Positions 23,381 through 44,629 of a stretch of 64,000 nucleotides of DNA are shown here, piece by piece. The notes under the pieces were generated by a model. The model did not search any database. It saw nothing but the letters and a program-made list of their open reading frames with translations, and was not told the DNA's origin. Positions within the stretch are counted from its first letter, which is position 1. Each line of letters starts with the position of its first letter. Source of the stretch: Escherichia coli (lineage in GTDB: Bacteria; Pseudomonadota; Gammaproteobacteria; Enterobacterales; Enterobacteriaceae); the NCBI RefSeq assembly GCF_024502345.1, contig NZ_JALDNN010000001.1; one strand, given 5' to 3'. The translations under genes and the position numbers were made by a program.

Positions 23381-24028
23381 GGCACTGTTGCAAATAGTCG
23401 GTGGTGATAAACTTATCATCCCCTTTTGCTGATGGAGCTGCACATGAACCCATTCAAAGGCCGGCATTTTCAGCGTGACATCATTCTGTGGGCCGTACGC
23501 TGGTACTGCAAATACGGCATCAGTTACCGTGAGCTGCAGGAGATGCTGGCTGAACGCGGAGTGAATGTCGATCACTCCACGATTTACCGCTGGGTTCAGC
23601 GTTATGCGCCTGAAATGGAAAAACGGCTGCGCTGGTACTGGCGTAACCCTTCCGATCTTTGCCCGTGGCACATGGATGAAACCTACGTGAAGGTCAATGG
23701 CCGCTGGGCGTATCTGTACCGGGCCGTCGACAGCCGGGGCCGCACTGTCGATTTTTATCTCTCCTCCCGTCGTAACAGCAAAGCTGCATACCGGTTTCTG
23801 GGTAAAATCCTCAACAACGTGAAGAAGTGGCAGATCCCGCGATTCATCAACACGGATAAAGCGCCCGCCTATGGTCGCGCGCTTGCTCTGCTCAAACGCG
23901 AAGGCCGGTGCCCGTCTGACGTTGAACACCGACAGATTAAGTACCGGAACAACGTGATTGAATGCGATCATGGCAAACTGAAACGGATAATCGGCGCCAC
24001 GCTGGGATTTAAATCCATGAAGACGGCT
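23381..24028 (+). mobile_element. IS26, 3'-truncated (left IR plus ~648 bp)
   Basis: Left IR GGCACTGTTGCAAA at 23381-23394; transposase matches IS26 Tnp to ...ATLGFKSMKTA, then sequence diverges; right IR absent. Confidence 0.85.
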
Positions 24029-24031
24029 TAA
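23444..24031 (+). pseudogene. tnpA: IS26 transposase, C-terminally truncated (195 of ~234 aa)
   Basis: MNPFKGRHFQRDIILWAVRWYCKYGISYRELQEMLAERGVNVDHSTIYRWVQRYAPEMEKRL...; stop created at junction. Confidence 0.8.
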
Positions 24032-24531
24032 CGGACATAACCTACATCAGGACCCACGAAGGCTGGCTGTATCTTGCCGTGGTGGTTGATCTGTTCTCAC
24101 GCAAAATTATCGGCTGGTCCATGCAATCCCGGATGACAAAGGACATTGTCCTGAACGCACTGCTGATGGCCGTATGGCGGCGTAATCCCCAAAAACAGGT
24201 GCTGGTTCATTCGGATCAGGGCAGTCAGTACACAAGCCATGAGTGGCAGTCGTTCCTGAAATCACACGGCCTGGAGGGCAGCATGAGCCGTCGCGGTAAT
24301 TGCCATGATAATGTGGTTGCAGAAAGCTTTTTCCAGTTGTTGAAACGCGAACGGATAAAGAAAAAGATCTACGGAACGCGGGAAGAAGCCCGCAGCGATA
24401 TTTTTGATTACATCGAAATGTTTTATAACAGTAAGCGTCGGCATGGTTCCAGCGATCAGATGTCACCGACAGAATATGAAAACCAGTATTATCAACGGCT
24501 CGGAAGTGTCTAGATTATCTGTGGCGATTCA
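24029..24531 (+). mobile_element. IS3-family orfB 3' fragment (~160 C-terminal codons) abutting truncated IS26
   Basis: Translation LTDITYIRTHEGWLYLAVVVDLFSRKIIGWSM...HSDQGSQYTS...SMSRRGNCHDNVVAESFF (DDE integrase core). Confidence 0.65.
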
Positions 24532-24546
24532 TATCTTGGAATATAA

Positions 24547-25017
24547 ATGTTAAAAAAATTAATAACTTTTTCTGCCATCCTGTGTACGGGACAAGCATGG
24601 GCTGCATGTGTGGATGGTGCAGCTGGCCCAAACGGCGTAGATAGTGCCACCGAAGGTAGTACCTGCGATAACAGCGGTACGTCATATATAGGGAATAATA
24701 CCGCTTATGCGAGCGGGTCAGGTTCTGTTCTTAATTTCTTACCTGGAACTGTAATCAGTAGTAATGGTGTTGCTGCCGTTTATACGCTTGCCGTGGGAGG
24801 AGTCAATAGTGGCGGTTCGATCCCTGGAGCTGGAGCAACGGTTCATGCAAAAGGAGATTTAACAGTTAATGGGAATGCTCTGGGCAGTACTCGGAGTATT
24901 TTTATCTTTTCTGGTACAGATGCAGGGGGAAAACGTAACTCACTTCAGATAGATGGAAACCTGACTGCAACGAGGACTGGCGGTCTTTATGGGGCTGTTA
25001 TAGGTGATAATGCCTGA
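24547..25017 (+). pseudogene. Autotransporter/adhesin-like secreted protein, N-terminal fragment (signal peptide plus Gly/Ser/Thr-rich beta-helix-like region)
   Basis: Signal peptide MLKKLITFSAILCTGQAWA followed by G/S/T/N-rich repeats; ORF ends where the antisense integrase fragment begins. Confidence 0.4.
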
Positions 25018-25548
25018 CTGGGCAGCATAGCGCATGATTGCAGTGATACGCTGCTGAAGGCGCGCTGCAATCTCATAAATCTCTTTGGCTTCGGCTGCCT
25101 TTACTGGAACAAGTAAATCGGGAGTTCTGAGGGTGGTAATGTCACGTGAACCGATAAAGGGAAACACATGAGTTTCTAGGCTTTTCAGTATCTTCTCACT
25201 ATGTGAGGCTGACCATTTTTTGTTGCTCTTATGCCACTGCCTTGCGATGCCTTCAAATGTCTGAGCTGTTTCGGGTACCGACTTTTTGATTCGTTTCTGT
25301 TCGCACGGGTCAGTTCCTTCAGCTATCTGCTTTCTCGCCGCATCGCGTTTTTCCCTTGCTTCTGATAACGAGACTTCAGGATAGACACCCAGGGCGAGCG
25401 TTTTCTCTTTGCCCAGAAACCGGTAGCGGAGTCGCCAGTAGCGCGAGCCGTTAGGGTGAACGAGCAAAAACATGTTGCCGCTGTCGGCAAGTTTATAAGG
25501 TTTTTCATCCGGTTTAGCTGCACGGATTTTAGCGTCAGTGAGCGCCAT
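25018..25548 (-). pseudogene. P4-type tyrosine integrase, N-terminal ~175 codons only (catalytic domain missing)
   Basis: MALTDAKIRAAKPDEKPYKLADSGNMFLLVHPNGSRYWRLRYRFLGKEKTLALGVYPEVSLSEAREKRDAARK matches P4/CP4 integrase N-termini; ~195 bp downstream of the tRNA-Phe terminator. Confidence 0.75.
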
Positions 25549-25704
25549 TGGCGGTATCTCCTGATAGTAAAAGGGGCATAAATTTTATCGAATCAGACTA
25601 TACCCTCAGTTGTACCCTCGCAAGGGGCTTGATGCGGGTAGAAGTTGATTGAGCTGGGTGGAGTTAATGGATTGAAGAGGTGTTGATTTCTGCGGGATTA
25701 GAAT

Positions 25705-26069: not shown

Positions 26070-26414
26070 CTAAAATAGCCGAGCAGCAAACGCCAAAACA
26101 ACAATACTAACATTACCATTAACTGTCGCGATGGTTCTGAGTCGATCGTCTTTAAGTGTTTTACCATCAAATGTTGCGATGGTGCGGAGTCGATCGTCTT
26201 TCAGGGTCTTGCCATCAAAGGTAGCGATGGTGCGGAGTCGGTCGTCTTTCAGGGTTTTACCGTCAAAAGTTGAGATGGTTCTGAGCCGGTCGTCTTTCAG
26301 GGTTTTACCGTCAAACGTTGCGATGGTCCTGAGCCGGTCGTCTTTCAGGGTTTTACCGTCAAAGGTAGCGATGGTACGGAGTCGATCGTCTTTTATAGTT
26401 ACGCTCATAAGCAT
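26070..26414 (-). CDS. Small protein made almost entirely of ~5.5 tandem 16-aa repeats (DGKTLKDDRLRTIATF)
   Basis: ATG at 26414 preceded by AGGAG at 7-nt spacing; the overlapping plus-strand ORF lacks an SD. Confidence 0.5.
   Translation of the reverse strand: MLMSVTIKDDRLRTIATFDGKTLKDDRLRTIATFDGKTLKDDRLRTISTFDGKTLKDDRLRTIATFDGKTLKDDRLRTIATFDGKTLKDDRLRTIATVNGNVSIVVLAFAARLF
26127..26395. repeat. 48-bp direct tandem repeat array, ~5.5 copies, slightly degenerate
   Basis: Unit cgatggtNNNgagNcgNtcgtctttcagggttttaccNtcaaaNgtNg repeated head-to-tail. Confidence 0.85.
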
Positions 26415-29861: not shown

Positions 29862-31087
<1,226 letters not shown>

Positions 31088-31091
<4 letters not shown>

Positions 31092-32644
31092 TTCTGCACC
31101 TCGCAGCCTTCAATTTCAGCCACAATCGCATCAATATCTTTGCGCAACTGGTCGATTTTGCTGACCGTGGTTTTCAGCTCTGCATTCAACTCAGCGATAT
31201 CGATAATTTCGCGAGTATCTTTCGCTTCCACATAGCTGCTCACCGACAGGTTATAGTCATTCGCGACAACAGTCTCAAACGCAACAGATTTCGCCAGATG
31301 AGCAACATCTTCCTTGCTGGCAAATACCTGCATAATTTGTTCGATATGGGCATCGGTCAGGATATTGTTGTTGGTCTCTTTTTTGAATAGTTCACTGGCG
31401 TCAATAAACTGAACTTTGGTATCGGTTTTATGTTTAGACAACACCAGAATATTGACGGCAATAGTGGTGCCAAAGAACAGGTTCGGTGCCAGTGAAATCA
31501 CGGTTTCGACATAGTTATTGTCAACCAGGTACTGTCGGATTTTCTGCTCTGCACCGCCACGGTAAAAAATACCGGGGAAGCAAACTATTGCTGCACGCCC
31601 TTTAGCAGACAGGTAGTTCAGCGCATGTAGGACAAATGCAAAGTCCGCTTTTGATTTCGGGGCCAGTACACCAGCTGGAGCAAAGCGCTCATCGTTAATC
31701 AGGGTCGGGTCGTCACTGCCAATCCACTTAACCGAGTACGGCGGGTTAGAGACAATCGCATCGAACGGTTTTTCATCGCCAAAGTGAGGCTCAGTCAGGG
31801 TATTCCCCAGTCTGATATCAAATTTGTCGTAGTTGATGTTGTGCAGGAACATGTTCATACGCGCCAGGTTAAAGGTTGTATGATTTATCTCCTGACCATA
31901 AAAACCTTCTTCAATGATATGGTTATCAAAGTGCTTCTTCGCCTGAAGCAGCAGTGAACCAGAGCCAGCGGCAGGGTCATAGATTTTGTTGACGTGAGTC
32001 TGACCGTGCATCGCAAGCTGAGCAATCAGCTTGGAGACGTGCTGAGGTGTGAAGAACTCCCCTCCAGACTTACCGGCATTTGCCGCATAGTTAGAAATCA
32101 GGAACTCGTAGGCATCACCAAACAGGTCAATCTGGTGCTCGTTAAAATTCCCCAGGTTAAGCCCTTCAACGCCTTTCAGAACGGCGGCAAGACGGCTGTT
32201 TTTGTCTTTAACTGTGTTACCCAGTCGATTGCTGGTCGTATCGAAATCGGCGAACAGGCCTTTGATGTCGGCCTCGGACGGATAGCCGTAGGCAGAGCTT
32301 TCTATAGCGACGAAGATACTATTTAAATCAGCATTCAGCCTGTCGTTGGTGTTCGCTTTAGCGGCAACGTTGCAGAACAGCTGGCTCGGGTAGATGAAAT
32401 AGCCTTTAGTCCTGATGGCATCGTCTTTGATGTCATCGGTAATGATGCTGTCATCAAGTGCTGCATAATGTATGCTCTCATCCCCTGCTTCCATGTAGCT
32501 GGAAAAATTCTCACTGATGAAGCGGTAGAAAAGTGCACCGAGTACATACTGTTTAAAATCCCATCCATCTACTGAGCCCCTGACATCATTGGCAATGGCC
32601 CAGATTTGACGGTGTAGCTCTGCACGCTGTTGAAGGCTTGTCAT
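31088..32644 (-). CDS. hsdM: Type I R-M N6-adenine DNA methyltransferase subunit (HsdM)
   Basis: 518 aa with NPPY catalytic motif ([10 protein letters not shown]); stop overlaps hsdS start. Confidence 0.9.
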
Positions 32645-32847
32645 TTTGTATCCTGTTGTATGATTCTTAAGTACTGTTATTGGCCCGATTTTATCGCAAT
32701 TTCATATGGATGACAGGCTTTGTATGTCATGCGTTGCACTGAGAGTTCGTTTGCCCGGTTGTGTAGCCAACACTCTTTCAGTCAGGCCAGTAGAAACGTT
32801 GCGCTGACGATAAATACTGAAGCCCCAATACCATCGGGGCTGAACGT

Positions 32848-34725
32848 TCAGTCGGTGAGAATTTCTTCATCCGTATCCATTGTGGATGGTGATGAATCTA
32901 TTTTTGTTGTAAGAAATACCCGATTCAGTAGTCTTTGCTTCAGGGCGTTTCTTCGCTCATTGTAGAATTCCGGGAAGTGACTGAACTCAATATTTTCATC
33001 TGAAACTAACAGCATTGATGGCGAATAGTTGTTTGATGGCTGAGATAGCCATTGTTTCAGGGAAGTATCCTGTTTACTTATATTCTGAGAGTGATTCAGT
33101 AAATGAAGATTCGGTATGGTGTCCCAGTATTCCGGATTTTCATAAAAGCTGAGCTTCTCAGGTGAATTCGCAATATAATCTAGTTTTTCAAGATATTTCT
33201 TTGAAAAATGATTTCTTGGGTGAAGGTGATCAATATGAAATACCTCGGTTGGATTCATTTCAGGGAACAGAAGATGCAATAGTGCGCGGCAACGACCTTC
33301 GCCATATCTGATATTGAGAAGGCTTTCGATGTATTCGTCGTCAAATCTGAGGTCTTTATTCGAGCCTTTATATCTGTCAATAATCTTTTCAAGAGGAAAG
33401 TGAATATCTGAAAGACTATTTTTCATTACCTCTCTGATACTCGTGAGTAGCGCATCTGCCTGGCTTCCAAAGATCCCTTTCAGAAGTACCATGTAAAACC
33501 ACTGGCTAATTACTGAGCGTTCATTGTGGTTTTTATTCAGGAGGTTAATCGTTGTATATAATGGATGTCCACTGGTTTGCTTTTTGTAAAGCCAGTAGAC
33601 CACAGGAATGACTGCATTTTTAGATATCAAAGACTGTGGATTGATGCCGAATCGCCTGATAAGAATAAAGGTCTCCTTGATACAGGATTTTATTTCAGAC
33701 CATTGTTGTTGTATCTTACCGACCTCCTCTGAAGTGAAGTTTTTTACTTTGAACCGGACGTCAGAGTCAATAAGCATCAGGCTGGTTTTTAAGAACCAGT
33801 CTCTTTCAATATAAAAACCCATTTCATTATTCTGATAAATGTTTTTTGTCAGTTCATCCAGTTCTCTTCTGAAATCCCCCTGCCAGTGCGCTACCGCTAT
33901 TGACATCAGTAAGTCTGAAAACTCAAGTTTTGTCCCCCCGCTGTTCGTGCGGATGAAAACATCCAGCACATGATCAATGTCCTGACTGCTCTCATTGAAG
34001 TAGTGGATAAGATTCTCAGTTCTTATCTTGGTATAAAGTTTAAGCAGAGTTTTTCTGGAAAATTCACTGGAAATGAGATCTCTTTTTTCAAGTTCTGGTA
34101 CGACAACGTTAAATAAAATATCATCAGGCGAATCATGTTGCTCGTATTTGAATATTTCGTGCAGGCAGAACCAGTGATGTTTGTTGTCTGTAAGTGAATC
34201 AGCGTATTGCTTGTCGGTCAGGAACCTGAAGTTATACTTCATCATGAGTTCGTCGTCTGACTTAAGTGGCGCGGTTAAATCGACGTAAAGCTTTCTGGGC
34301 GGCAGGATGCGATCATCCTGTGCCGAAGGCCACCACATCCGGGGCTGTTTATACGCATACGTTCCACACAATCCAATATATAATGATGTGAGACGCTGCT
34401 GACCATCAATCACCGCTTTGAAATCATGAAATCCAGCATTTGTTGCTACGCAGGGGTTTTCTTCATTAAATCGCTGACAGTATTCTTTCAGGAATTCATA
34501 GAATTTGTAATCATTTTTAATACTGGCACTACGGATATCCCACATCATGAAAGAGTTTATCGGGTAGTCTCGCATGATGGAATCAAACAGCAAACATATC
34601 TGACTGCTGCTCCAGACGAACTTCCTCTGAATTGCAGGCAGAAGATAGTGGCGTAAATTAATTGAATCTATCGCTTGTTTTATCGTTATTGCTTTTTCAT
34701 ACTGGCCAGCCATCATAAACCTCAT
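32848..34725 (-). CDS. DUF262 (ParB/GmrS-like) plus DUF1524 (His-Me finger, GmrD-like) two-domain protein; candidate Type IV (modification-dependent) restriction or defense nuclease
   Basis: 625 aa; N-terminal ...IQRKFVW...VIDGQQRLTSLYIGL; C-terminal HIDHLHPRNHFSKK; AT-rich coding sequence. Confidence 0.75.
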   Translation of the reverse strand: MRFMMAGQYEKAITIKQAIDSINLRHYLLPAIQRKFVWSSSQICLLFDSIMRDYPINSFMMWDIRSASIKNDYKFYEFLKEYCQRFNEENPCVATNAGFHDFKAVIDGQQRLTSLYIGLCGTYAYKQPRMWWPSAQDDRILPPRKLYVDLTAPLKSDDELMMKYNFRFLTDKQYADSLTDNKHHWFCLHEIFKYEQHDSPDDILFNVVVPELEKRDLISSEFSRKTLLKLYTKIRTENLIHYFNESSQDIDHVLDVFIRTNSGGTKLEFSDLLMSIAVAHWQGDFRRELDELTKNIYQNNEMGFYIERDWFLKTSLMLIDSDVRFKVKNFTSEEVGKIQQQWSEIKSCIKETFILIRRFGINPQSLISKNAVIPVVYWLYKKQTSGHPLYTTINLLNKNHNERSVISQWFYMVLLKGIFGSQADALLTSIREVMKNSLSDIHFPLEKIIDRYKGSNKDLRFDDEYIESLLNIRYGEGRCRALLHLLFPEMNPTEVFHIDHLHPRNHFSKKYLEKLDYIANSPEKLSFYENPEYWDTIPNLHLLNHSQNISKQDTSLKQWLSQPSNNYSPSMLLVSDENIEFSHFPEFYNERRNALKQRLLNRVFLTTKIDSSPSTMDTDEEILTD

Positions 34726-34786
34726 ATGTTATATTAGCTGGCCTATTTTAATTTATTGCGTGTCGGTAGTACAGTCTTTGCACAAA

Positions 34787-35116
34787 CTAATTTATGCAAT
34801 GGAAAAGCTGACGGCTCGGTTTGTGTTTTTCATTCGGGTAGACTCGCATTGCGGATGCACAAAGTGATGAAACCTGTCTTGCTATATTTTTACCGAAGTT
34901 AACAAGAAGGCCGTGCTTTATTTTTTCACCCTCTGCCCTGATGCTGATGATAAAGCTGAACTGATATACGATTACCTCAATGAGGTCATTGCCAAATGTT
35001 ATAATGGCGGCGTTGTTTATTTCATGTTCATAATCCCTCAGGTCAGTGTTAAGTCTTGCTGTTGCATCTACAAGTGCGTATTCTTTATCGATAATCATAA
35101 CTTTCTCACTTATCAT
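34787..35116 (-). CDS. Small hypothetical protein between the WYL regulator and the DUF262/DUF1524 gene
   Basis: ORF of 109 codons co-oriented with flanking genes; start uncertain (MISEKV or MIIDKEY); no family recognised. Confidence 0.3.
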   Translation of the reverse strand: MISEKVMIIDKEYALVDATARLNTDLRDYEHEINNAAIITFGNDLIEVIVYQFSFIISIRAEGEKIKHGLLVNFGKNIARQVSSLCASAMRVYPNEKHKPSRQLFHCIN

Positions 35117-35156
35117 GTTAATGTGATTTAATCATCACTAATAATATGTTGTGATT

Positions 35157-35870
35157 TTAATTACGATTATTCGTCTGTTTACTCCCGTAATGCATTATCT
35201 TATGAATAATGTTCATGTGGGGTAAGGCTTCCATAAAGTCAGACTGTTCAATCAGCGAAATGAGTGTGTTATCGATCTCAAACGTTGTATCCGGTAATAC
35301 CTCAACCAGCCTGATTCGGGACAGGGAAATAACGAACACGCCCGATGACGTACATCCGGCAAGAAACCACTCCGCATGGCTGCAAAGCAGACGGTAGGGA
35401 TGAACGGTATGGCTGACGTTTTCGTCGGTTCTGATACGCACCTGGGTCTGGTTAAGTATGGCGAGCGTCAGTCTGCTGAAATCACCGAAAAGGGTGGGTT
35501 TCTGGCGCGGCTCCGGTAGCATAATCCTGTATGGCGAGGGACGTTCCCCGTCAAGCATCAGGCTCAGTAGTTTGGCATCCATCGCGGGTAACAGACGGTC
35601 AAGATGCAGCAACCTCGCCAGTATCTTCATATCCCGTTCCGTGCGGCGACGAAAGTAATGTGAGGCAAGCTGATACACGCCGTTGCTCTGTTCAATATCA
35701 AGGTAGGTCAGACGGACGTTGAAATCCCGTCGCAGCGTTCGCGTCGTCACTCCAAATTCTTCTGCCAGCGTCCCGATATGCAGCTTTTCACCCTGAAACA
35801 AACGGCTCAGGATGATGGAAAGGCGGGTTGCCAGTCTGTCATGTTCGTTTTCTTGTGTTATCAGCGTCAT
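35157..35870 (-). CDS. HTH plus WYL-domain transcriptional regulator (YfjR / BrxR-like)
   Basis: 237 aa; N-terminal HTH LHIGTLAEEFGVTTRTLRRDFN, C-terminal ligand-binding-type region. Confidence 0.7.
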   Translation of the reverse strand: MTLITQENEHDRLATRLSIILSRLFQGEKLHIGTLAEEFGVTTRTLRRDFNVRLTYLDIEQSNGVYQLASHYFRRRTERDMKILARLLHLDRLLPAMDAKLLSLMLDGERPSPYRIMLPEPRQKPTLFGDFSRLTLAILNQTQVRIRTDENVSHTVHPYRLLCSHAEWFLAGCTSSGVFVISLSRIRLVEVLPDTTFEIDNTLISLIEQSDFMEALPHMNIIHKIMHYGSKQTNNRN

Positions 35871-35871
35871 A

Positions 35872-35930
35872 CATCATTTCCGAATTTAGCCGGGAAATGA
35901 TGCCAGCAGTAGCGGACAGGATTTGTCCGC
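35872..35930. promoter_or_regulatory. Two inverted repeats immediately upstream of the WYL regulator start (candidate operators)
   Basis: catcatttcc-N11-ggaaatgatg at 35872-35902 and gcggaca-ggatt-tgtccgc at 35911-35929. Confidence 0.4.
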
Positions 35931-35972
35931 CCTCTGAAGTTTTTTAAAGTCTGAATACCTTAAATGTAAGTG

Positions 35973-36266
35973 CTAAACGTCAGTATTCTCAGGTGAATAA
36001 AGATGCTTCTGGCGCATGTAGGCAATAAAAATGCAGGATGGTAGCGTCACCCGGTATGCGGGACCGGCTAAATCAATCAGCAGCCAGAGAGAACTGAGCA
36101 CCCAGCCCACGGGACCGGCAAAAGCGCCCATGGTACGCGTCAGCATGGCATTTCCTGCAACGGTCAGCCCTCTGCCTAACAGGGCTTTCGCCACACCATT
36201 TGTGACAACAAGTGCCATCTGATAGGCCGCAAACCCGGATGTTTTAATCCCCGCCTGGATTGCCAT
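35973..36266 (-). CDS. Hypothetical membrane-associated protein; possibly the 3' half of a frameshifted gene
   Basis: 97-aa ORF starting 2 nt after the stop of the upstream ORF, different frame. Confidence 0.3.
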   Translation of the reverse strand: MAIQAGIKTSGFAAYQMALVVTNGVAKALLGRGLTVAGNAMLTRTMGAFAGPVGWVLSSLWLLIDLAGPAYRVTLPSCIFIAYMRQKHLYSPENTDV

Positions 36267-36268
36267 GG

Positions 36269-36589
36269 TCAGCAGCTCCGGCGTGGGATTGCTGTATCGC
36301 AGACGATACCGAGCAGGAGATACCAGCCATCATCAAGTGCGGTGACGTATTCCGGGTTAGCCAGTGCCACTGCCAGCAGCGGGTCTTCGGGGAGTGTGTC
36401 ATCGTGGTTGAGATGCCAGAGCAGGGTTCCCGTTTCGTTCCAGAAGGCGGTAAACAGGTCGATATCATCGACAGGGCCAAGGATTTCATTGCTGAGGGCC
36501 ACCAGTGCGGAGGCGGGCAGGTTGAGAAGGGGAAGACTGGTGGGAGTCGTGAGTTTAAACATGATTATCTCCATAAGTAATTGATTCAT
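36269..36589 (-). CDS. Hypothetical protein; possibly the 5' half of a frameshifted gene
   Basis: 106-aa ORF immediately upstream of 35973-36266 on the same strand. Confidence 0.3.
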   Translation of the reverse strand: MNQLLMEIIMFKLTTPTSLPLLNLPASALVALSNEILGPVDDIDLFTAFWNETGTLLWHLNHDDTLPEDPLLAVALANPEYVTALDDGWYLLLGIVCDTAIPRRSC

Positions 36590-37081
36590 ATTGATAATAT
36601 GTTTTCAAATGACTTTTAGTTACATTTTTTTTACGTTGTTTGCTTATTTTGGATTATGTCCTTAAATTTAGTAGTGGGCTGGCGTTAAATCCCGTTTTTT
36701 TTCCGATTTGCAGCATTTTGTAAGCAAATTAGCATGAGCTGTTTTAACTGAAAATGAGAGAAGGCTTGCGCACAATTGCTATTGATTTTCTTACTTATTT
36801 TCTCAATCACAAAACGCCTTAAATAGTTCAAAAAACAATCAACACCCCATAATCGATATTATTTATGGGGAGAAACGACGTTTAAGCCTGAAAGTGGGGG
36901 AGTGGCACTTTCAGGAGATTAAGGAGGCAAACAGGCCTCTTTAACGCGTGTTTTTCTCACCAAAATGTCAGAGTCGGTGATTTGCACTTCAGTATTTCTG
37001 CCAATACTATTCGCTCCATGTGCTGGCCAGCATCTAACTCAATACCCTTAATCTGTATTAATTGAGCGAGATGTATGCATT

Positions 37082-38404
37082 ATGAAACCCGATAGTTCTT
37101 TAAACCAAATAACGCAGACAATGAAACGGAATGATGTTGATTCTGTGGATAGTCGCTTTTTTGAGTCAGCGCAAAACATGAAAACCAGCGTTGACGTTGA
37201 AGATTGCTGCGTTGAAGTGATGGTTCGACATCACAGCCCAAAGAATCAAAGAGAGGCATTCACTAAAGCTTTTTTTGATGAGTGTAAAATCCGTGCAGTA
37301 CAAACTGGCCGGACTATCGAAGCCAGCGATACAAAATGTACCGGGCTTAAGGCTATATTCCACTCATCCGGACGCATTAAGTTTATTGTCCGCAAAAGTA
37401 TTCGCGGAAAGAATGTTTACGTTGCAGTAGGAAGTTACCCTGAATTTTCCATTAATAACGCAAGGGAACATGCCTTTAAAATAATTCAGGAGCTTAAGGC
37501 TTCCGTTGAGACTTATGGTGAGCGTTTTCTTACGCACAGCAAAATAACGTTTAATGAACTTGTGGAACAGTATGTGAAATGCGTACTTAACACGGGCGTT
37601 AAGCGTTCAGCTAACACCGACCTTTCTAAGATCCGTAAATACCTGCGCCCTCTTCTCGGTGACAAAAAGCTGGCAGGTATGACGGAGGCAGATGTTCTGA
37701 GCTATCTACACGATCTCGATCTTAAGCCTGCCACACGCAACCGCCACCTGGCGCTCATTAAAGCGGTCTTTACCTGGGCTATACGCATGGGATACACCAG
37801 CCGCTCTCCGGCGCTTTATATCAAAGCGCTGCCTGAAGTGACGTCAGATCGCCGCGCCATGGATGACTCCCAGCTTCAGCGCTGGATGGAAGTCTGTGAG
37901 TGCTGGCGTAATGGTAAACCCGATCATGAAGCCCTTGCTCTGCTCATGTTCCTTGCCCTGACGGGGCTGCGTCTGGGGGAAACCCGTCACCTTCGTCTTG
38001 AAGATGTGGACTGGAGCCGCAAGGTTATCACCCTTCGCCATACCAAAAACGGCAAACTCCGCCGTGTACCGGTATGTGATAAGGCTTTCGTTCTTCTGAC
38101 AGAACAGCGTCAGCATCTGGGTGATGAAGGCTGGGTATTTCCGGGCAAGGGGACCGACAATCCGGTTTCTGAGCCGCGTCGCCTGCAAAAACGGCTTTGT
38201 GAGGCTGCGGGTATTCCACCGTTCACCATCCATGAGATGCGCCATACCTTTGCGACAAAACTCATTGAGAGCGGGGCCGACATTCACACCGTCAAAGACT
38301 TACTGGGCCACAGCACTATCAAAGTGACGGAGCTTTACTTGCACGCTTCCCCGGCGCGTTACCACGAAGCTGTTAACCGGGCGATGAATGTTTTTCCGGC
38401 CTAA
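37082..38404 (+). CDS. Tyrosine site-specific recombinase / integrase (not P4-type)
   Basis: 440 aa; C-terminal catalytic signature ...FTIHEMRHTFATKLIESGADIHTVKDLLGHSTIKVTELYLH. Confidence 0.8.
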   Translation: MKPDSSLNQITQTMKRNDVDSVDSRFFESAQNMKTSVDVEDCCVEVMVRHHSPKNQREAFTKAFFDECKIRAVQTGRTIEASDTKCTGLKAIFHSSGRIKFIVRKSIRGKNVYVAVGSYPEFSINNAREHAFKIIQELKASVETYGERFLTHSKITFNELVEQYVKCVLNTGVKRSANTDLSKIRKYLRPLLGDKKLAGMTEADVLSYLHDLDLKPATRNRHLALIKAVFTWAIRMGYTSRSPALYIKALPEVTSDRRAMDDSQLQRWMEVCECWRNGKPDHEALALLMFLALTGLRLGETRHLRLEDVDWSRKVITLRHTKNGKLRRVPVCDKAFVLLTEQRQHLGDEGWVFPGKGTDNPVSEPRRLQKRLCEAAGIPPFTIHEMRHTFATKLIESGADIHTVKDLLGHSTIKVTELYLHASPARYHEAVNRAMNVFPA

Positions 38405-38476
38405 ACAGAATTCCCCCTCAGGCAAGTGAGTTCTGCGCTTTACTGCCTGTGGTTCACATTCAAAAGGAACCTGTAA

Positions 38477-39172
38477 ATGAATAATAAATCAACACCATCC
38501 CCCTTGACTACAACGACCCCCGCTCGTTTTGCCTGCAGGAAATTAAATGCATTTCTGGCTCGTCGTGCTCTTCATATGAAGGTGGTAAGAAAAAACCTGA
38601 ACAAGGCTGCTGCAATCGACATCGATCTCGATGACATTTCTAAGTGCGGATGCCGTGATGGTCTGCCTGAAGGCTTTGTCAATACTGCAAAAGGGCTTTT
38701 CTATTATGAAGGAAAAAAATGGTACCAGTTAAGCTCGACCCCCATTCTCCCTGTCTACAGGCATTATTCTGATTGTAAAACGCGCAATATGGGCGTCGAG
38801 TTGATGACTATCAACCATGCTGGAGAGTTCGCCTGTGCTGATGTCTCATTAAGTGATGCAATGGTAAAACCTGATCACGTCATGGCTTCTCTGGCGGGCA
38901 AAGGTTTTGGTATCTCCCTGACGATAAAGTCTAAAGAGCTTCTGGTGCAATTCTTACAGGTGTGTATGAAGAAATCGCTGGAATTGCCTACTTATCTTGT
39001 CGCAGATTCGATGGGTTTTGTGCCTGGCAACAAAGCATTTCTTCACGGCAGTATACCTATCGCGCAGCACCTTTTGGAATTTGACTATTTGATTCCGGCT
39101 TCCCGTGTTCCACGAGGGCTTGTCGAGTCGGGAACGCTGGATGACTGGAAAACGATGGTACCTGTGAAATGA
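38477..39172 (+). CDS. Hypothetical protein downstream of the integrase
   Basis: 231-aa ORF with AAGGA-type SD; 3' end overlaps convergent ORF 39085-39468. Confidence 0.4.
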   Translation: MNNKSTPSPLTTTTPARFACRKLNAFLARRALHMKVVRKNLNKAAAIDIDLDDISKCGCRDGLPEGFVNTAKGLFYYEGKKWYQLSSTPILPVYRHYSDCKTRNMGVELMTINHAGEFACADVSLSDAMVKPDHVMASLAGKGFGISLTIKSKELLVQFLQVCMKKSLELPTYLVADSMGFVPGNKAFLHGSIPIAQHLLEFDYLIPASRVPRGLVESGTLDDWKTMVPVK

Positions 39173-39468
39173 ATCCATTCTGATTCACCGAAGTCACTGG
39201 TCTGGTGTGACAGCGAGTACAGCCAGGCGTTATCCTTTTCCGTGATATGTGCGGTACTGCAGCGTATGCCGGCAAGGGTTGCAAACGGTGGTAGTGTGCA
39301 GGTTGACTGTTGGTCGGATTCCTCCACCACGCGGAGTGAATAACCGTTTTCAGCGACCTTGTTAATCAGTTCAGTGAGATTAACACCATCGACATCAACG
39401 ACAATTCGCCCCATGTTCAGTGCCTGCACATTAATGCTGTCGGCTTCCAACGTCAGGGCCAGTTTCAT
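39085..39468 (-). CDS. Hypothetical small protein downstream of the WYL regulator
   Basis: ATG at 39468 preceded by GGAGG; C-terminal extent uncertain because of overlap with 38477-39172. Confidence 0.4.
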   Translation of the reverse strand: MKLALTLEADSINVQALNMGRIVVDVDGVNLTELINKVAENGYSLRVVEESDQQSTCTLPPFATLAGIRCSTAHITEKDNAWLYSLSHQTSDFGESEWIHFTGTIVFQSSSVPDSTSPRGTREAGIK

Positions 39469-39577
39469 TGTTTCGCCTCCGGATGCTTCCCCTGGGTAAT
39501 GTTATTTACCGTTCTGTAGTTATCGCGGGTCATCAGGCCGGTTGCCCTGCGAGCCCGGAGAATATCAATACTGTTTA

Positions 39578-40228
39578 TTAACTGAGAGCGGGTAAGGACT
39601 GAATAAATCCCGGGTCTTCAACAAGACGACACAGACTGTCGTTACGCCGGAAAGTCTCCTGCAGGGGCTGAACCAGATGGATTTCATCCAGGGAGAATAC
39701 GGCGATATGTCCGTCGTGCTCTGCCACCAGATACCAGGCCTGCTGGTGGATAAGTAACCGGCAGGGAGCCAGCCGCTCACAGCGCTGCCCCTCGGCAATC
39801 AGAGTCACCCGCCTGCGCCCGGTAATGGCCTGAATCAGTCGCCAGAAAGACAATGCGCCTGATGGCGAAGGAGCCGGACTGGCGGGTGCGATTACGCAGG
39901 GAGACTCATCGCACATCAGCAGTGCGTTTACCAGACGACGGTCAAAGCCAGGGAAAAGACCGGCCATCCCGCTGCGGTGGGCAAAGATAAGCACGTCGGG
40001 CACCATCTGCGTCTCACTGCCCGCAGTGCGTAAGCGGTAATATCCGGACTGATACTCCAGGTCCAGATACATCAGCCGCTCACGAAAATCACGCCGCAGC
40101 GTGCGCACCGACACACCAAACTCAGCGGCAAGCTTACGCACACTCAGCGTTTCCCCTGCCACCAGACGGCTGATTATCAGTGACAGCCTGACAGCCAGCC
40201 GGTCATGGCGGCGTTCTGCCTGTGTCAT
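39578..40228 (-). CDS. HTH plus WYL-domain transcriptional regulator (YfjR-like), paralog of 35157-35870
   Basis: 216 aa; [28 protein letters not shown]; same architecture as the first WYL regulator. Confidence 0.7.
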
Positions 40229-40444
40229 GAGACGTTCTCCGTGAAAGTTAACTGACTGAAAATGATGTGATTACTTTAAAGAGGGGGTCGGACAGGGTAT
40301 GGACACCACAGAAACTATTTTTCATTTCTGCAAAAGCCAGAGGCAGCGGGGGTTACAGGCCTTCCCTCGGTGAGTGAGGACCGTCAGCACGGTGCGATGC
40401 GGACAGGTGGTGTCCGATATTAACAAAGCAGCAACATTAAACGG

Positions 40445-41266
40445 TCACTGCAGTTGCGTGAGCAGGGCTTCCGCCATCACCCACAGTGCCCGGTTAAGTT
40501 TCACGTCCCCGTCGATACCGCGAACGGCACGGGTATGTGACCGTCCTCCTTTGGCATTACGGCCACTGAGCCCGCCCTTAATCAGGTTCTCCTGAATACG
40601 CTGGTACGTGGTCCACAGGTCATTGCTCTCATCCTGCCAGCGGCGAGGGGAGAGGATCTGCGATTCAGTCACCGGCTGGTGGTCTTCACCAAAGCGGTAT
40701 GTGAGGGCGGCTTTTGCCAGTGCCTGCTGTGCCGGGGGTGGCAACAGCAACGACTGCATGGCATCCCGTTTCTCCTCCACCCGGTCAAAAATCCCCAGCA
40801 CCTCATACGCGCCTTCAATCACCTGACTCACCACGTCCCCCTTGTGTGGCACCCGCACCTCGCCAAACGACTCACCGCAGACGAGCCCGTTCTGACAAAC
40901 CGCACGAAATAGTCCCGGCAACATCTGATACGAACTAGTGCCATCGTGGGAGTTGAGCAGGATAATTTCTGGTACCTGTTTACCGGTAATCTGCCCCTCA
41001 CGCCGCAGACGCAGCATATGCTTTGTATGTTCACGACGACCGGGGTCACGCACGCGGGTCTGACAGGCAAAGAATGGCTGGAAGCCTTCTCGCTGTAGGC
41101 TGTCGAGCAGGGAGATGGTAGGTATATAGGTATAACGCTCACTGCGGGATTCATGTTTGTCCTCGCTGAATACACTGGGCACCACGCGAAACAGCTCCTC
41201 ACGGGTTAACGGGCGGTCGCGACGGATAAGGTTTGCTGCGCCAAAGCGCGAAGCCAGACGGGTCAT
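40445..41266 (-). CDS. DUF932-family protein (YfjQ-like)
   Basis: 273 aa from MTRLASRFGAANLIRRDRPLTREELF; sits in the YfjP-YfjQ-YfjR order of CP4-type islands. Confidence 0.6.
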   Translation of the reverse strand: MTRLASRFGAANLIRRDRPLTREELFRVVPSVFSEDKHESRSERYTYIPTISLLDSLQREGFQPFFACQTRVRDPGRREHTKHMLRLRREGQITGKQVPEIILLNSHDGTSSYQMLPGLFRAVCQNGLVCGESFGEVRVPHKGDVVSQVIEGAYEVLGIFDRVEEKRDAMQSLLLPPPAQQALAKAALTYRFGEDHQPVTESQILSPRRWQDESNDLWTTYQRIQENLIKGGLSGRNAKGGRSHTRAVRGIDGDVKLNRALWVMAEALLTQLQ

Positions 41267-41357
41267 AAGCAGACTCCTCATAATGGGAAAACAAATAAAA
41301 GAAATCCCCGTCGCATCGGCGACAGGGTTAGGGAAATAACAGGGATGGGTTAAATAC

Positions 41358-42221
41358 TCAGAAGAAGAAATCCCAGACGGCACGGGCCACTGACACCACG
41401 GTGGTGCGCACGGCCTGAATGACGGCCCGCACCGGGGCGGGGATCAGGGGAAAGGCACTGATGCTATCGAGTACAGCACCGACGGTTTCACCAAAATCGC
41501 TACGCGCCTGTTCCCGGACTACCGTCGTGCGAAAGGAAGGCTGGAGTTGCGACACCACCGGGCTGGTGGCCTCACGTGGCAGGCACTTAATCATTCGCTC
41601 GGCCATCACCCGCAGTCCCCACTGAAGACGGACCGACACGGCACACACTGGATGTACGGGCTGGAACAGCTCATGCAGCAGGCAGATTTTGCGGCTGATA
41701 TTCTGCTTCTGCGCCGTGGACAACTGTCCCCCACCGCTGGTAGGTTCGGCCTTATCCGACTGGCTGATAACAAACAGCACCTTATGCCGGTATACCTCTC
41801 CAATCACCTGATGATAAAAATGTTCATCCACCGTCAGCGCCCGGTCATCGGCCTTAATCAGCCACAGTACCAGGTCGAGGCGAGGAAGCTGTTCGCGGTA
41901 CAGCGCAGCATACTCGGTATCGCGAGCACCACTTTCGCCCACGCCGGGCAGATCCATCAGCGTTATATAGCGGTCGCCAACCTGCAGGCGAAAGCGCAGT
42001 GGCTCACGTGTACAGGCCGCCACATCGCTGACCGGTGATACCTCACTGGCAAACAGGGCATTGCAGAGTGAGGATTTACCGGCACCGCTCTTACCCATAA
42101 TGCCGATCACTGGCTCGTAGCGGGTTAACTGATTTATCTGCTGCAATATACGTTCAGACACCCACTGTGGCAGACCAGCGAGCGATTGCTGAAACGGCTT
42201 CAATCCTTCAGAATTGTTCAT
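41358..42221 (-). CDS. YfjP/YeeP/YkfA-family GTPase
   Basis: 287 aa from MNNSEGLKPFQQ; P-loop GIMGKSGAGKSSL and DLPG motif. Confidence 0.7.
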   Translation of the reverse strand: MNNSEGLKPFQQSLAGLPQWVSERILQQINQLTRYEPVIGIMGKSGAGKSSLCNALFASEVSPVSDVAACTREPLRFRLQVGDRYITLMDLPGVGESGARDTEYAALYREQLPRLDLVLWLIKADDRALTVDEHFYHQVIGEVYRHKVLFVISQSDKAEPTSGGGQLSTAQKQNISRKICLLHELFQPVHPVCAVSVRLQWGLRVMAERMIKCLPREATSPVVSQLQPSFRTTVVREQARSDFGETVGAVLDSISAFPLIPAPVRAVIQAVRTTVVSVARAVWDFFF

Positions 42222-42327
42222 TACTACTCCTCTGAAAAATAATACAAAAACGGCAGAATCGTGAGATTCCACCGTTAATCTGGTATGTTCAAAGGGATGA
42301 TATATATCTGAAAATTATTAACTTGAT

Positions 42328-43254
42328 CTACTTTTTGTCTTTTTTACGTGATGAAACAGCCTGCAGCCAAGCATGCTTCATTTTCTGAATAAAGAAATAT
42401 TTTTCTTCAACTCCAGTGTCCCAACTATCCATGCATGCAATGATCATCTGTATTCTCATTGCAGTGTTATATGGTTTTAAATAAAAGGGGATCATATTTT
42501 TATTTCTCAGATACTCCCAGCAATAGATAGCTTGCTTTTCATCTTTTTTATCTAGCCAGTCATAATCAGTAAGAAATGTATTATATTGCTCTAGCCATTT
42601 ATCATGCAACTTACGAAAATAGGAAATTTTCTGACTTAAACTTACAGGAGCTAAATCAATAAACCTCATCAAAGTACAAATGCGTTCTTGTTCGGATGTT
42701 GTATTCGGGCTGTAGTTGTCGGGATCTGCGCCAGATGTTAAATAAAATCTACGCGAGTATTTTTCAGGTATATCTCTATTTTTTTCTTTATTGCTAGGGG
42801 AGGTTCCCACCTGCATTTCGGCTTGTACTTCATCAAGTGAGAAATTTTTAATTTCATCAATGTTTATAAATTCAAAAAAGGATGCAGGAGTTGAGTTCGG
42901 GTTGTAAATATTATCTTGTGCAAAGATATTCACGCTCGAGGAGGTTTCAGGACTGATTCTGTTGTTATATATATACATTAAGGCAAACCACGATCCTCTA
43001 TCAGAACCTTTGAAACAATCGAACTTCTCTTTGTCAATGATTTTGTAATGGAACTGTTTTTTCAAGTAAGTACGCGCACTTTGTATTGCTTCATTATTGA
43101 ATAGGAATTTAGTGTTCAATATATGATTAATGAGTTTTTGAAATTCCTCAGGCGTGTCGAAATTACTCGCCTGCTTAATGTAATCTTCGTTGTAATACAG
43201 ACTCAGAACGTAAAGGGAAAAGAACTCCTCTCTCACTTCGTCATACCTAAGCAT
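42328..43254 (-). CDS. Hypothetical low-GC 308-aa protein, Asn/Lys/Tyr/Phe-rich
   Basis: Long ORF in strongly AT-rich DNA, first gene of the co-oriented block containing the YfjP/YfjQ/WYL genes. Confidence 0.5.
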   Translation of the reverse strand: MLRYDEVREEFFSLYVLSLYYNEDYIKQASNFDTPEEFQKLINHILNTKFLFNNEAIQSARTYLKKQFHYKIIDKEKFDCFKGSDRGSWFALMYIYNNRISPETSSSVNIFAQDNIYNPNSTPASFFEFINIDEIKNFSLDEVQAEMQVGTSPSNKEKNRDIPEKYSRRFYLTSGADPDNYSPNTTSEQERICTLMRFIDLAPVSLSQKISYFRKLHDKWLEQYNTFLTDYDWLDKKDEKQAIYCWEYLRNKNMIPFYLKPYNTAMRIQMIIACMDSWDTGVEEKYFFIQKMKHAWLQAVSSRKKDKK

Positions 43255-43572: not shown

Positions 43573-44629
43573 GGCTTTGTTGAATAAATCGAACTTTTGC
43601 TGAGTTGAAGGATCAGATCACGTATCTTCCCGACAACGCAGACCGTTCCGTGGCAAAGCAAAAGTTCAAAATCACCAACTGGCCCACCTACAATAAAGCC
43701 CTCATCAACCGTGGCTCCATAACTTTCTGGCTGGATGATGAAGCTATTCAGGCCTGGTATGAGTCAGCAACACCTTCTTCACGAGGCAGACCTCAGCGCT
43801 ATTCTGACCTTGCCATCACGACTGTGCTGGTCATTAAACGCGTATTCAGGCTGACCCTGCGCGCTGCGCAGGGCTTTATTGATTCCATTTTTTCTCTGAT
43901 GAACGTTCCGCTACGCTGCCCGGATTACAGCTGTGTCAGCAGGCGGGCAAAGTCGGTTAATGTCAGTTTCAAAACGCCCACCCGGGGTGAAATCGCACAC
44001 CTGGTAATTGATTCCACCGGGCTGAAGGTCTTCGGTGAAGGCGAGTGGAAAGTCAAAAAGCATGGCCAGGAACGCCGCCGTATCTGGCGTAAGCTGCATC
44101 TCGCCGTTGACAGTAAAACACATGAAATCATCTGCGCTGACCTGTCGCTGAACAACGTTACGGACTCAGAGGCCTTCCCCGGGTTAATCCGGCAAACCCA
44201 CCGGAAAATCAGGTCAGCCGCCGCCGATGGCGCTTACGATACCCGGCTATGTCACGATGAACTGCGGCGTAAGAAAATCAGCGCGCTTATCCCTCCCCGA
44301 AAAGGTGCGGGTTACTGGCCCGGTGAATATGCAGACCGTAACCGTGCAGTGGCTAATCAGCGAATGACCGGGAGTAATGCGCGGTGGAAATGGACAACAG
44401 ATTACAACCGTCGCTCGATAGCGGAAACGGCGATGTACCGGGTAAAACAGCTGTTCGGGGGTTCACTGACACTGCGTGACTACGATGGTCAGGTTGCAGA
44501 GGCTATGGCCCTGGTACGAGCGCTGAACAAAATGACGAAAGCAGGTATGCCTGAAAGCGTGCGTATTGCCTGAAAACACAACCCGCTACGGGGGAGACTT
44601 ACCCGAAATCTGATTTATTCAACAAAGCC
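43573..44629 (+). mobile_element. IS903-group (IS5 family) insertion sequence, complete, 1057 bp, no target-site duplication
   Basis: Terminal inverted repeats GGCTTTGTTGAATAAATC at 43573-43590 and 44612-44629; flanking 9-mers tatctatgc vs actgtgttt differ. Confidence 0.9.
43605..44573 (+). CDS. IS903-type transposase
   Basis: 322-aa ORF MKDQITYLPDNADRSVAKQKFKITNWPTYNKALINRGSITFWLDDEAIQAWY... with DDE motif region. Confidence 0.9.
   Translation: MKDQITYLPDNADRSVAKQKFKITNWPTYNKALINRGSITFWLDDEAIQAWYESATPSSRGRPQRYSDLAITTVLVIKRVFRLTLRAAQGFIDSIFSLMNVPLRCPDYSCVSRRAKSVNVSFKTPTRGEIAHLVIDSTGLKVFGEGEWKVKKHGQERRRIWRKLHLAVDSKTHEIICADLSLNNVTDSEAFPGLIRQTHRKIRSAAADGAYDTRLCHDELRRKKISALIPPRKGAGYWPGEYADRNRAVANQRMTGSNARWKWTTDYNRRSIAETAMYRVKQLFGGSLTLRDYDGQVAEAMALVRALNKMTKAGMPESVRIA

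What the first reader, a model, noticed from the sequence alone, without database searches (positions are those of the whole stretch)
35973..36589. Two adjacent out-of-frame ORFs that may be one disrupted gene
ORF 36269-36589 ends 2 nt before the start of ORF 35973-36266 on the same strand, in different frames. The second is hydrophobic and membrane-like. This is either translational coupling of two small genes or a frameshifted gene of ~200 aa.
Basis: seen in the sequence. Interest (0 to 1): 0.3.

Follow-up and report, generated by a model that had tools for sequence, protein, structure and literature searches.

The report
Deletion scar joining two gene remnants
The two small back-to-back ORFs are not one frameshifted gene but leftovers of two unrelated genes, joined when a 2.76-kb deletion in an E. 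coli defence island removed five genes and the front 60% of a JukA/YaaW anti-phage sensor gene; this is ordinary gene decay.

Summary
Two ORFs lie on the minus strand, 2 nt apart and in different frames. In related E. coli islands (strains ES1, AREA_C483, ABWA45, F11), ORF1 is the start of a 117-aa hypothetical gene. ORF2 is the last 97 codons of a 249-aa JukA/YaaW-family gene (DUF3944 + Cbp3-like domain). There, the two genes lie about 2.2 kb apart with five genes between them. The window lacks 2,757 bp. The joint is at window 36296/36295 and has only a 2-nt TA microhomology. The deletion puts 89 codons of the first gene out of frame with the jukA tail, which adds 8 new codons and a stop. The next in-frame ATG of jukA then opens "ORF2". 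The identical joint occurs in eight independent public contigs, so it is a real allele and not a sequencing error. None of 5,426 complete E. coli genomes carries it. NCBI already lists both ORFs as small E. coli proteins. Most likely both are non-functional remnants, and this island has lost its JukA-type jumbo-phage sensor. Residual expression of the JukA C-terminal fragment by translational coupling cannot be excluded, but nothing supports it. Interest is low.

The parts
36269..36562 (-). Chimeric ORF1 (97 aa; the ORF listing extends it to an upstream ATG at 36589). Codons 1-89 are the 5' part of a 117-aa hypothetical island gene. The last 8 codons (TAIPRRSC) and the stop are jukA DNA read out of frame.
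   Evidence: There is an 89-aa identical prefix with WP_020838591.1 of E. coli ABWA45. The homologues are 117 aa. GGAG lies 6 nt before the ATG at 36562. NCBI holds the chimeric protein as WP_060659202.1, a hypothetical protein of E. coli.
36295..36296 (-). Deletion joint. The 2-nt 'TA' is shared by both flanks, and 2,757 bp present in intact islands are missing here.
   Evidence: blastn gives window 36602..36295 = L001 935..1244 and window 36296..32004 = L001 4001..8293. The same holds against L003 at 4010|6768. No long direct repeat lies at the end points in the intact island.
35973..36296 (-). 3' remnant of a jukA/yaaW-family gene, codons 143-249 of 249. Within it, ORF2 (35973..36266, 97 aa) starts at the internal Met153.
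   Evidence: tblastn matches JukA249 residues 143-249 at 100% identity. PADLOC JukA profiles match at positions 152-240 of 245-250, E=1e-28. Pfam PF03981 matches its C-terminal part. The intact homologue is 249 aa with DUF3944 + PF03981.
35912..35930 (-). Hairpin GCGGACA-AATCC-TGTCCGC just downstream of the jukA stop. In intact islands a second copy lies just upstream of jukA, and that copy was lost with the deletion.
   Evidence: Repeat family D2 in L003 (6276-6294 and 7133-7151).
35157..35870 (-). Intact HTH-WYL transcriptional regulator immediately downstream. It is the usual neighbour of jukA genes.
   Evidence: Pfam HTH_DeoR + WYL. PADLOC WYL at E=2.4e-15. The Juk paper names WYL and restriction-modification genes as the commonest jukA neighbours.
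37082..38404 (+). Divergently transcribed tyrosine integrase of the island. This is context: ORF1 is the first gene of the cargo operon that faces it.
   Evidence: Pfam Phage_integrase at E=8.6e-32. The same layout occurs in E. coli F11 and ABWA45.

Best explanation
The two ORFs are the stumps left by one 2,757-bp deletion inside the cargo operon of an integrase-borne E. coli defence island. In the intact island the gene order is hyp117, hyp143, DUF2787, LRAT-like, 79-aa HTH, hyp127, jukA, WYL regulator, hyp103, GmrSD, type I R-M. The deletion runs from codon 90 of the first gene (117 aa, unknown function) to codon 142 of jukA. JukA is a 249-aa YaaW-family protein, the sensor of the Juk anti-jumbo-phage system. 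The break was repaired at a 2-nt TA microhomology, which indicates illegitimate recombination and not recombination between repeats or IS activity. The joint is out of frame, so the first gene now ends after 8 foreign codons. 'ORF2' is simply the stretch of jukA from its internal Met153 to its natural stop. Shown: the origin of both ORFs, the exact joint, the missing content, and the presence of the same allele in independent assemblies. Inferred: both stumps are non-functional and this island has lost JukA-type immunity along with five other cargo genes. Also inferred: the deletion is recent, because ORF2 has no nucleotide change in any carrier and the 89 retained residues of ORF1 are identical to an intact homologue. 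Transcription from the operon's start presumably now runs straight into the WYL regulator and the GmrSD and R-M genes.
For: The missing 2,757 bp and the flank alignments are. The intact protein matches PADLOC JukA end to end (3-241 against profile 4-239/245, E=3.5e-72), while ORF2 matches only profile 152-240. The intact protein carries Pfam DUF3944 + PF03981. ORF1 homologues are 117 aa and cover 94% of ORF1. The deleted DNA and its proteins are absent from the rest of the window. The same joint is in 8 loci from NCBI, Logan and ENA, with ORF2 identical in nucleotide sequence. 118 of the best 150 cluster representatives matching ORF2 are at least 200 aa, and the match usually starts near residue 140-165. 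The JukA=YaaW function and its WYL and R-M neighbourhood come from bioRxiv 10.1101/2022.09.17.508391.
Against: Loss of function is inferred, not measured. ORF2 keeps an ATG with GGAG 9 nt upstream, and the ORF1 stop lies 2 nt before it (TGAccATG), so it could be translated by coupling. 13 of the 150 best representatives matching ORF2 are 135 aa or shorter, and their status is unknown. The allele occurs with at least two different downstream cargos (L008 versus the rest), so it has persisted through some recombination. No sigma-70 consensus promoter was found upstream of ORF1, so transcription is not established either way.
Confidence: 0.9

Rival explanations
1. This is a single ~200-aa gene broken by a frameshift, either a sequencing error or a true indel near 36260-36275.
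For: The only support is the geometry: same strand, 2-nt gap, different frames.
Against: The two halves belong to unrelated families whose intact members are 117 aa and 249 aa and are encoded about 2.2 kb apart. The frame change coincides with a 2,757-bp deletion joint at 36296/36295, not with an indel at 36260-36275. The sequence is identical in 8 independent assemblies. There is no slippery heptamer in the 60-nt stretch where both frames are open.
Confidence: 0.01
2. The two ORFs are translationally coupled small genes that are both functional. For example, the JukA C-terminal fragment might act alone or modulate another YaaW/JukA paralogue.
For: The stop and start are arranged as TGAccATG, with GGAG 9 nt upstream of the ORF2 ATG. 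The allele is carried in several E. coli backgrounds and with two different downstream cargos. A minority of representatives matching ORF2 (13 of 150) are short C-terminal-only proteins.
Against: The arrangement arose by one deletion and is absent from 5,426 complete E. coli genomes. ORF2 lacks the DUF3944 domain and about 60% of the Cbp3-like domain. ORF1 lacks its last 28 residues. There are no substitutions among carriers, so there is no signal of selection. The GGAG and the Met are native internal jukA sequence (PELLTM) and were not acquired.
Confidence: 0.07
3. The window shows the ancestral state, and the 2.76 kb in other strains is an insertion.
For: Nothing specific supports this. It is considered only because deletion and insertion are formally symmetrical.
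Against: In the long form both flanking genes are complete members of their families. JukA matches its profile end to end, and the 117-aa form is the norm in Escherichia, Citrobacter, Enterobacter and Edwardsiella. An insertion would have to supply exactly the missing N-terminal 142 codons of JukA and the C-terminal 28 codons of the other gene.
Confidence: 0.01
4. The joint is an assembly artefact: a collapsed or mis-joined contig.
For: None.
Against: The identical 38-nt joint is present in two NCBI assemblies, four Logan run assemblies and two ENA metagenome assemblies, on backbones that differ by 0.04 to 3.5%.
Confidence: 0.01

Closest known systems
JukA (formerly YaaW), sensor of the Juk 'jumbo phage killer' system (bioRxiv 10.1101/2022.09.17.508391); Pfam DUF3944 (PF13099) + Ubiq_cyt_C_chap/Cbp3 (PF03981)
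   Same: ORF2 is 100% identical to residues 153-249 of a 249-aa E. coli protein that matches PADLOC JukA models end to end. The neighbourhood of a WYL regulator, GmrSD and type I R-M is the one the paper reports as typical for jukA.
   Different: Only the C-terminal 39% (97 of 249 residues) can be translated, or 43% if the whole remnant DNA is counted. The DUF3944 domain and most of the Cbp3-like domain are deleted. No JukB was recognised among the neighbours scanned. No phage assay exists for this subfamily.
Deletion-generated pseudogene remnants in bacterial genomic islands (illegitimate, microhomology-mediated deletion)
   Same: The joint is clean with 2-nt microhomology, no IS and no long repeats. 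It produces an out-of-frame fusion of the 5' end of one gene to the 3' end of another. Other scars lie in the same island.
   Different: Nothing unusual. The only peculiarity is that the stop of the chimeric ORF falls 2 nt before an internal ATG, which mimics a coupled gene pair.
E. coli K-12 YaaW (UPF0174), the chromosomal paralogue known for the antisense overlapping gene htgA/mbiA (PMC2268670)
   Same: Same family: RefSeq names the intact island protein 'YaaW family protein'.
   Different: The island copy is a distinct, horizontally mobile paralogue. It reaches only 92 bits against the NCBIfam model NF007593, whose cut-off is 395. No antisense gene was examined here.

Membership tests
JukA / YaaW family | Significant match to JukA sequence profiles | tested here: met
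   ORF2 matches PDLC04111 at E=1e-28 and PDLC04113 at E=2.3e-26. The intact homologue scores E=3.5e-72.
JukA / YaaW family | N-terminal DUF3944 (PF13099) domain | tested here: not met
   It is present at residues 4-38 of the intact 249-aa homologue. It is absent from the window: tblastn finds only residues 143-249, and Pfam finds no DUF3944 in ORF1 or ORF2.
JukA / YaaW family | Complete Cbp3-like (PF03981) domain covering most of the protein | tested here: not met
   The intact homologue covers PF03981 positions 4-138 of 140. ORF2 covers only positions 80-138, at 20.8 bits, below the 21.5-bit cut-off. The window therefore holds a fragment of a family member, not a member.
JukA / YaaW family | Partner effector (JukB or another) in the same operon | tested here: inconclusive
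   No PADLOC hit other than WYL was found for the neighbours or for the deleted genes. The paper reports JukA proteins that work alone or sit beside transcription regulators.
JukA / YaaW family | Protection against PhiKZ-like nucleus-forming jumbo phages | not testable with these tools
   This needs a phage challenge of strains with the intact and the deleted allele.
Programmed ribosomal frameshift gene | Slippery heptamer in the overlap, and a fusion product conserved in homologues | tested here: not met
   No X XXY YYZ motif occurs in 36332-36269. No homologue spans both ORFs.
Native translationally coupled gene pair | Stop and start within a few nt, with a ribosome-binding site in the upstream ORF | tested here: met
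   TGAccATG, with GGAG 9 nt upstream of the ATG.
Native translationally coupled gene pair | The adjacency is conserved among homologues | tested here: not met
   In ES1, AREA_C483, ABWA45 and F11 the parent genes are about 2.2 kb apart with five genes between them. No complete E. coli genome has the adjacency.

The most novel reading that the evidence does not exclude
The 97-aa C-terminal JukA fragment is still made, by termination-reinitiation after the chimeric ORF1. It would then act on its own, for example as a dominant-negative or modulating partner of the chromosomal YaaW/JukA paralogue, or as a free version of the hydrophobic C-terminal module that also occurs in some short proteins. 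The deletion allele would then be a neofunctionalised mini-operon and not debris.
Probability: 0.05. Interest if true: 0.4.

Novelty: already known. Interest (0 to 1): 0.08.

Why it matters
It matters little beyond annotation. The two ORFs should be flagged as remnants: a truncated jukA/yaaW-family pseudogene and a truncated hypothetical gene. Public records currently list them as a 'hypothetical protein' and a 'ubiquinol-cytochrome C chaperone family protein'. For work on defence islands, this is a dated example of cargo loss. One microhomology deletion removed a JukA-type sensor and five neighbouring genes while sparing the WYL regulator, GmrSD and the type I R-M system. The deleted allele then spread to several E. 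coli backgrounds.

Tried and rejected
The word-indexed protein search with ORF2 returned only 13 hits, mostly fragments, and said nothing about typical lengths. The exhaustive representative search replaced it.

The sequence search of the PDB with the intact JukA homologue found nothing meaningful. I did not run structure prediction, because the tool returns no coordinates for testing whether the C-terminal third folds independently.

The Rfam scan of 33000-40500 found no RNA family.

The promoter scan found no sigma-70 consensus site upstream of ORF1. The terminator-like hits inside ORF2 are weak, with 5-bp stems. Expression therefore remains undetermined.

I looked for direct repeats at the deletion end points in the intact island and found none longer than the TA dinucleotide. 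A nearby imperfect GACAGG(G/C)TA motif is offset and does not explain the joint.

A search for the deleted 2.76 kb elsewhere in the window, to test for translocation or inversion, found nothing.

I considered a joint formed between two different island variants, because identity to relatives switches at the joint. I rejected this as unnecessary, since intact islands close to the window on both sides exist: ABWA45 is 96.8% identical on the left and 99.2% on the right.

NCBIfam gave only a sub-threshold match, to a model whose name is evidently misleading (PRK10236 'acidic protein MsyB'; 92 bits against a 395-bit cut-off). I did not use it.

Full report
**Observation.** On the minus strand, ORF 36269..36589 (106 aa from the first ATG) ends in TGA at 36271-36269. 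Two bases (CC) follow, and then the ATG of ORF 35973..36266 (97 aa) in another frame. The description is accurate. The biologically likely start of the upstream ORF is the ATG at 36562, which has GGAG 6 nt upstream. RefSeq and gene callers use this start for the homologues, and it also gives 97 aa. ORF2 is moderately hydrophobic, with GRAVY +0.58 and a best 19-residue window of 1.59.

**What the two ORFs are.** A megablast of the region against 5,426 complete E. coli genomes found 114 genomes with matches. In each of them the query split into two separate places, and no genome covered the query in one piece. The downstream half (window 36296 and lower) lies under a gene annotated 'YaaW family protein / DUF3944 domain-containing protein', followed by an HTH/WYL regulator. 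The upstream half (36297-37080) lies under a 'hypothetical protein' about 2.8 kb away in the same genomes.

Annotated regions from strains ES1, AREA_C483, ABWA45 and F11 all show the same operon. Its order is: 117-aa hypothetical, 143-aa hypothetical, DUF2787 protein, LRAT-family protein, 79-aa DeoR-type HTH protein, 127-aa hypothetical, 249-aa DUF3944/YaaW protein, WYL regulator, 103-aa hypothetical, DUF262/GmrSD, and type I R-M. The operon faces a divergently transcribed integrase and a DUF927 gene (Pfam).

**The joint.** blastn places window 36602..36295 on L001 935..1244 and window 36296..32004 on L001 4001..8293. Against ABWA45 (L003) the break is 4010|6768. A three-way alignment shows perfect continuity with the left flank up to ...GTCTGCGATA and with the right flank from TACAGCAAT... 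onward. Only the dinucleotide TA is shared, and 2,757 bp are missing. The intact island has no long direct repeat at the end points and no IS, which indicates microhomology-mediated illegitimate recombination. The missing DNA and its proteins are nowhere else in the window.

The consequences for the two ORFs are as follows.
- **ORF1.** It keeps 89 codons identical to WP_020838591.1. It then reads 8 codons of jukA DNA out of frame (TAIPRRSC) and stops.
- **jukA remnant.** The jukA-derived DNA (36296..35973) encodes residues 143-249 at 100% identity.
- **ORF2.** It is the part of that remnant from the internal Met153 onward.

The GGAG upstream of the ORF2 ATG and the ATG itself are native internal jukA sequence (P-E-L-L-T-M). 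They were not acquired as start signals.

**Family identity.** The intact 249-aa protein matches PADLOC JukA models end to end (E=3.5e-72) and carries Pfam DUF3944 + PF03981. ORF2 matches only profile positions 152-240 (E=1e-28). JukA, formerly YaaW, is described as the sensor of the Juk system. It recognises ejected factors of PhiKZ-like nucleus-forming jumbo phages. WYL regulators and R-M genes are its most frequent neighbours, and some JukA proteins, including one from Escherichia, were sufficient for immunity without a partner (bioRxiv 10.1101/2022.09.17.508391). The intact island fits that picture. The window retains only a fragment.

ORF1's family has no Pfam, NCBIfam or PADLOC match. 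Its homologues are overwhelmingly 117 aa, in Escherichia, Citrobacter, Enterobacter and Edwardsiella, and they cover 94% of ORF1, that is everything except the novel tail. In an exhaustive search with ORF2, 118 of the best 150 cluster representatives are at least 200 aa (median 257). The matching stretch typically starts around residue 140-165. Thirteen are 135 aa or shorter, and their status is unknown.

**Is it real?** The exact chimeric ORF1 protein is on record in at least 13 contigs. Eight loci were retrieved: two NCBI assemblies, four Logan run assemblies and two ENA metagenome assemblies. All contain the same 38-nt joint. They sit on backbones 0.04-3.5% divergent from the window and carry at least two different downstream cargos. 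ORF2 is identical in nucleotide sequence in all of them, and ORF1 shows one synonymous difference in one locus. The allele is therefore genuine and arose once. It is young, and the data carry no signal of selection in either direction. NCBI already lists both products: WP_060659202.1 as 'hypothetical protein', and MCQ7033450.1 and others as 'ubiquinol-cytochrome C chaperone family protein'.

**Mechanism and rivals.** The best explanation, with confidence about 0.9 for the origin, is a deletion scar whose two stumps are non-functional. The island has lost JukA-type immunity and five other cargo genes, and the operon's start now sits closer to the WYL regulator and the GmrSD and R-M genes.

The other readings fare as follows.
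- **Frameshifted single gene.** This is refuted by the homologues, by the position of the frame change at the deletion joint, and by the absence of a slippery site.
- **Assembly artefact.** This is refuted by the eight independent assemblies.
- **The short form is ancestral.** This is refuted because the long form has complete family members on both sides.
- **Functional coupled pair.** This is the only rival left alive. The fragment may still be translated by coupling (TGAccATG, with GGAG at -9) and may do something. I give it about 0.05-0.07.

**Context.** The window is Escherichia coli chromosome. The first 6 kb (lptF, lptG and neighbours) match 4,075 genomes over at least 80% of their length, at 95-99.4% identity. 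The island is a mosaic and carries further scars, listed under the items noticed in passing.

**Verdict.** Interest is low, and the practical outcome is an annotation correction.

Noticed in passing
window 38477-39468: There is a second scar in the same island. The DUF927 gene is cut to 231 aa, against 643 aa in E. coli F11. Homology to F11 stops at 39164 and resumes at 39319 inside a DUF5983 remnant on the opposite strand (39085..39468), so another deletion or recombination joint lies near 39165. Locus L007 shares this joint, but L004-L006 do not.
   Followed up: partly
window 23400-25550: This stretch holds a cluster of fragments: an IS26 transposase fragment (23426..24031 +), an IS3-family orfB fragment (24079..24513 +), and an integrase N-terminal fragment (24940..25548 -). 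The integrase fragment has the Arm-DNA-binding and central domains but no catalytic domain.
   Followed up: partly
window 26070-26414 (-): A 114-aa ORF is built almost entirely of tandem ~16-aa repeats (DDRLRTIATFDGKTLK). RefSeq annotates the relatives as '5-fold beta-flower protein', and the ORF sits next to hsdR.
   Followed up: no
window 35912-35930 (-); L003 6276-6294 and 7133-7151: In intact islands a 19-nt hairpin-forming repeat (GGCGGACAAAYCCTGTCCG) flanks jukA on both sides, as if it marks a gene module. Only the downstream copy survives in the window.
   Followed up: no
window 31036-39164, either side of 36296: The closest relatives switch at the joint. The left side (ORF1 and integrase) is 99.1% identical to E. 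coli F11 but 92.6% to ES1. The right side (jukA tail and WYL) is 99.5% identical to ES1 but 94.8% to F11. The island backbone is therefore a recombination mosaic.
   Followed up: partly
L008 2942-6626 (ENA ERZ27268294): A contig with the same deletion joint carries different cargo downstream of the WYL regulator. It has a Peptidase_M78 + HTH pair and Multi_ubiq / ThiF / BubE genes, which form a ubiquitin-like (Bil-type) system, in place of GmrSD and type I R-M.
   Followed up: no
window 39578-43254 (-) and 43605-44573 (+): A CP4-57-like island remnant lies next door: a second HTH-WYL regulator (39578..40228), a DUF932 protein (40445..41383) and a YeeP-like GTPase (41358..42272). An IS5-family transposase gene follows at 43605..44573.
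   Followed up: no
window 36260-36580 (+): A 106-aa ORF and an 80-aa ORF run antisense to ORF1, and a 63-aa ORF (36031..36222) runs antisense to ORF2. There is no evidence that they are genes. They are noted only because K-12 yaaW is known for an antisense overlapping gene (PMC2268670).
   Followed up: no
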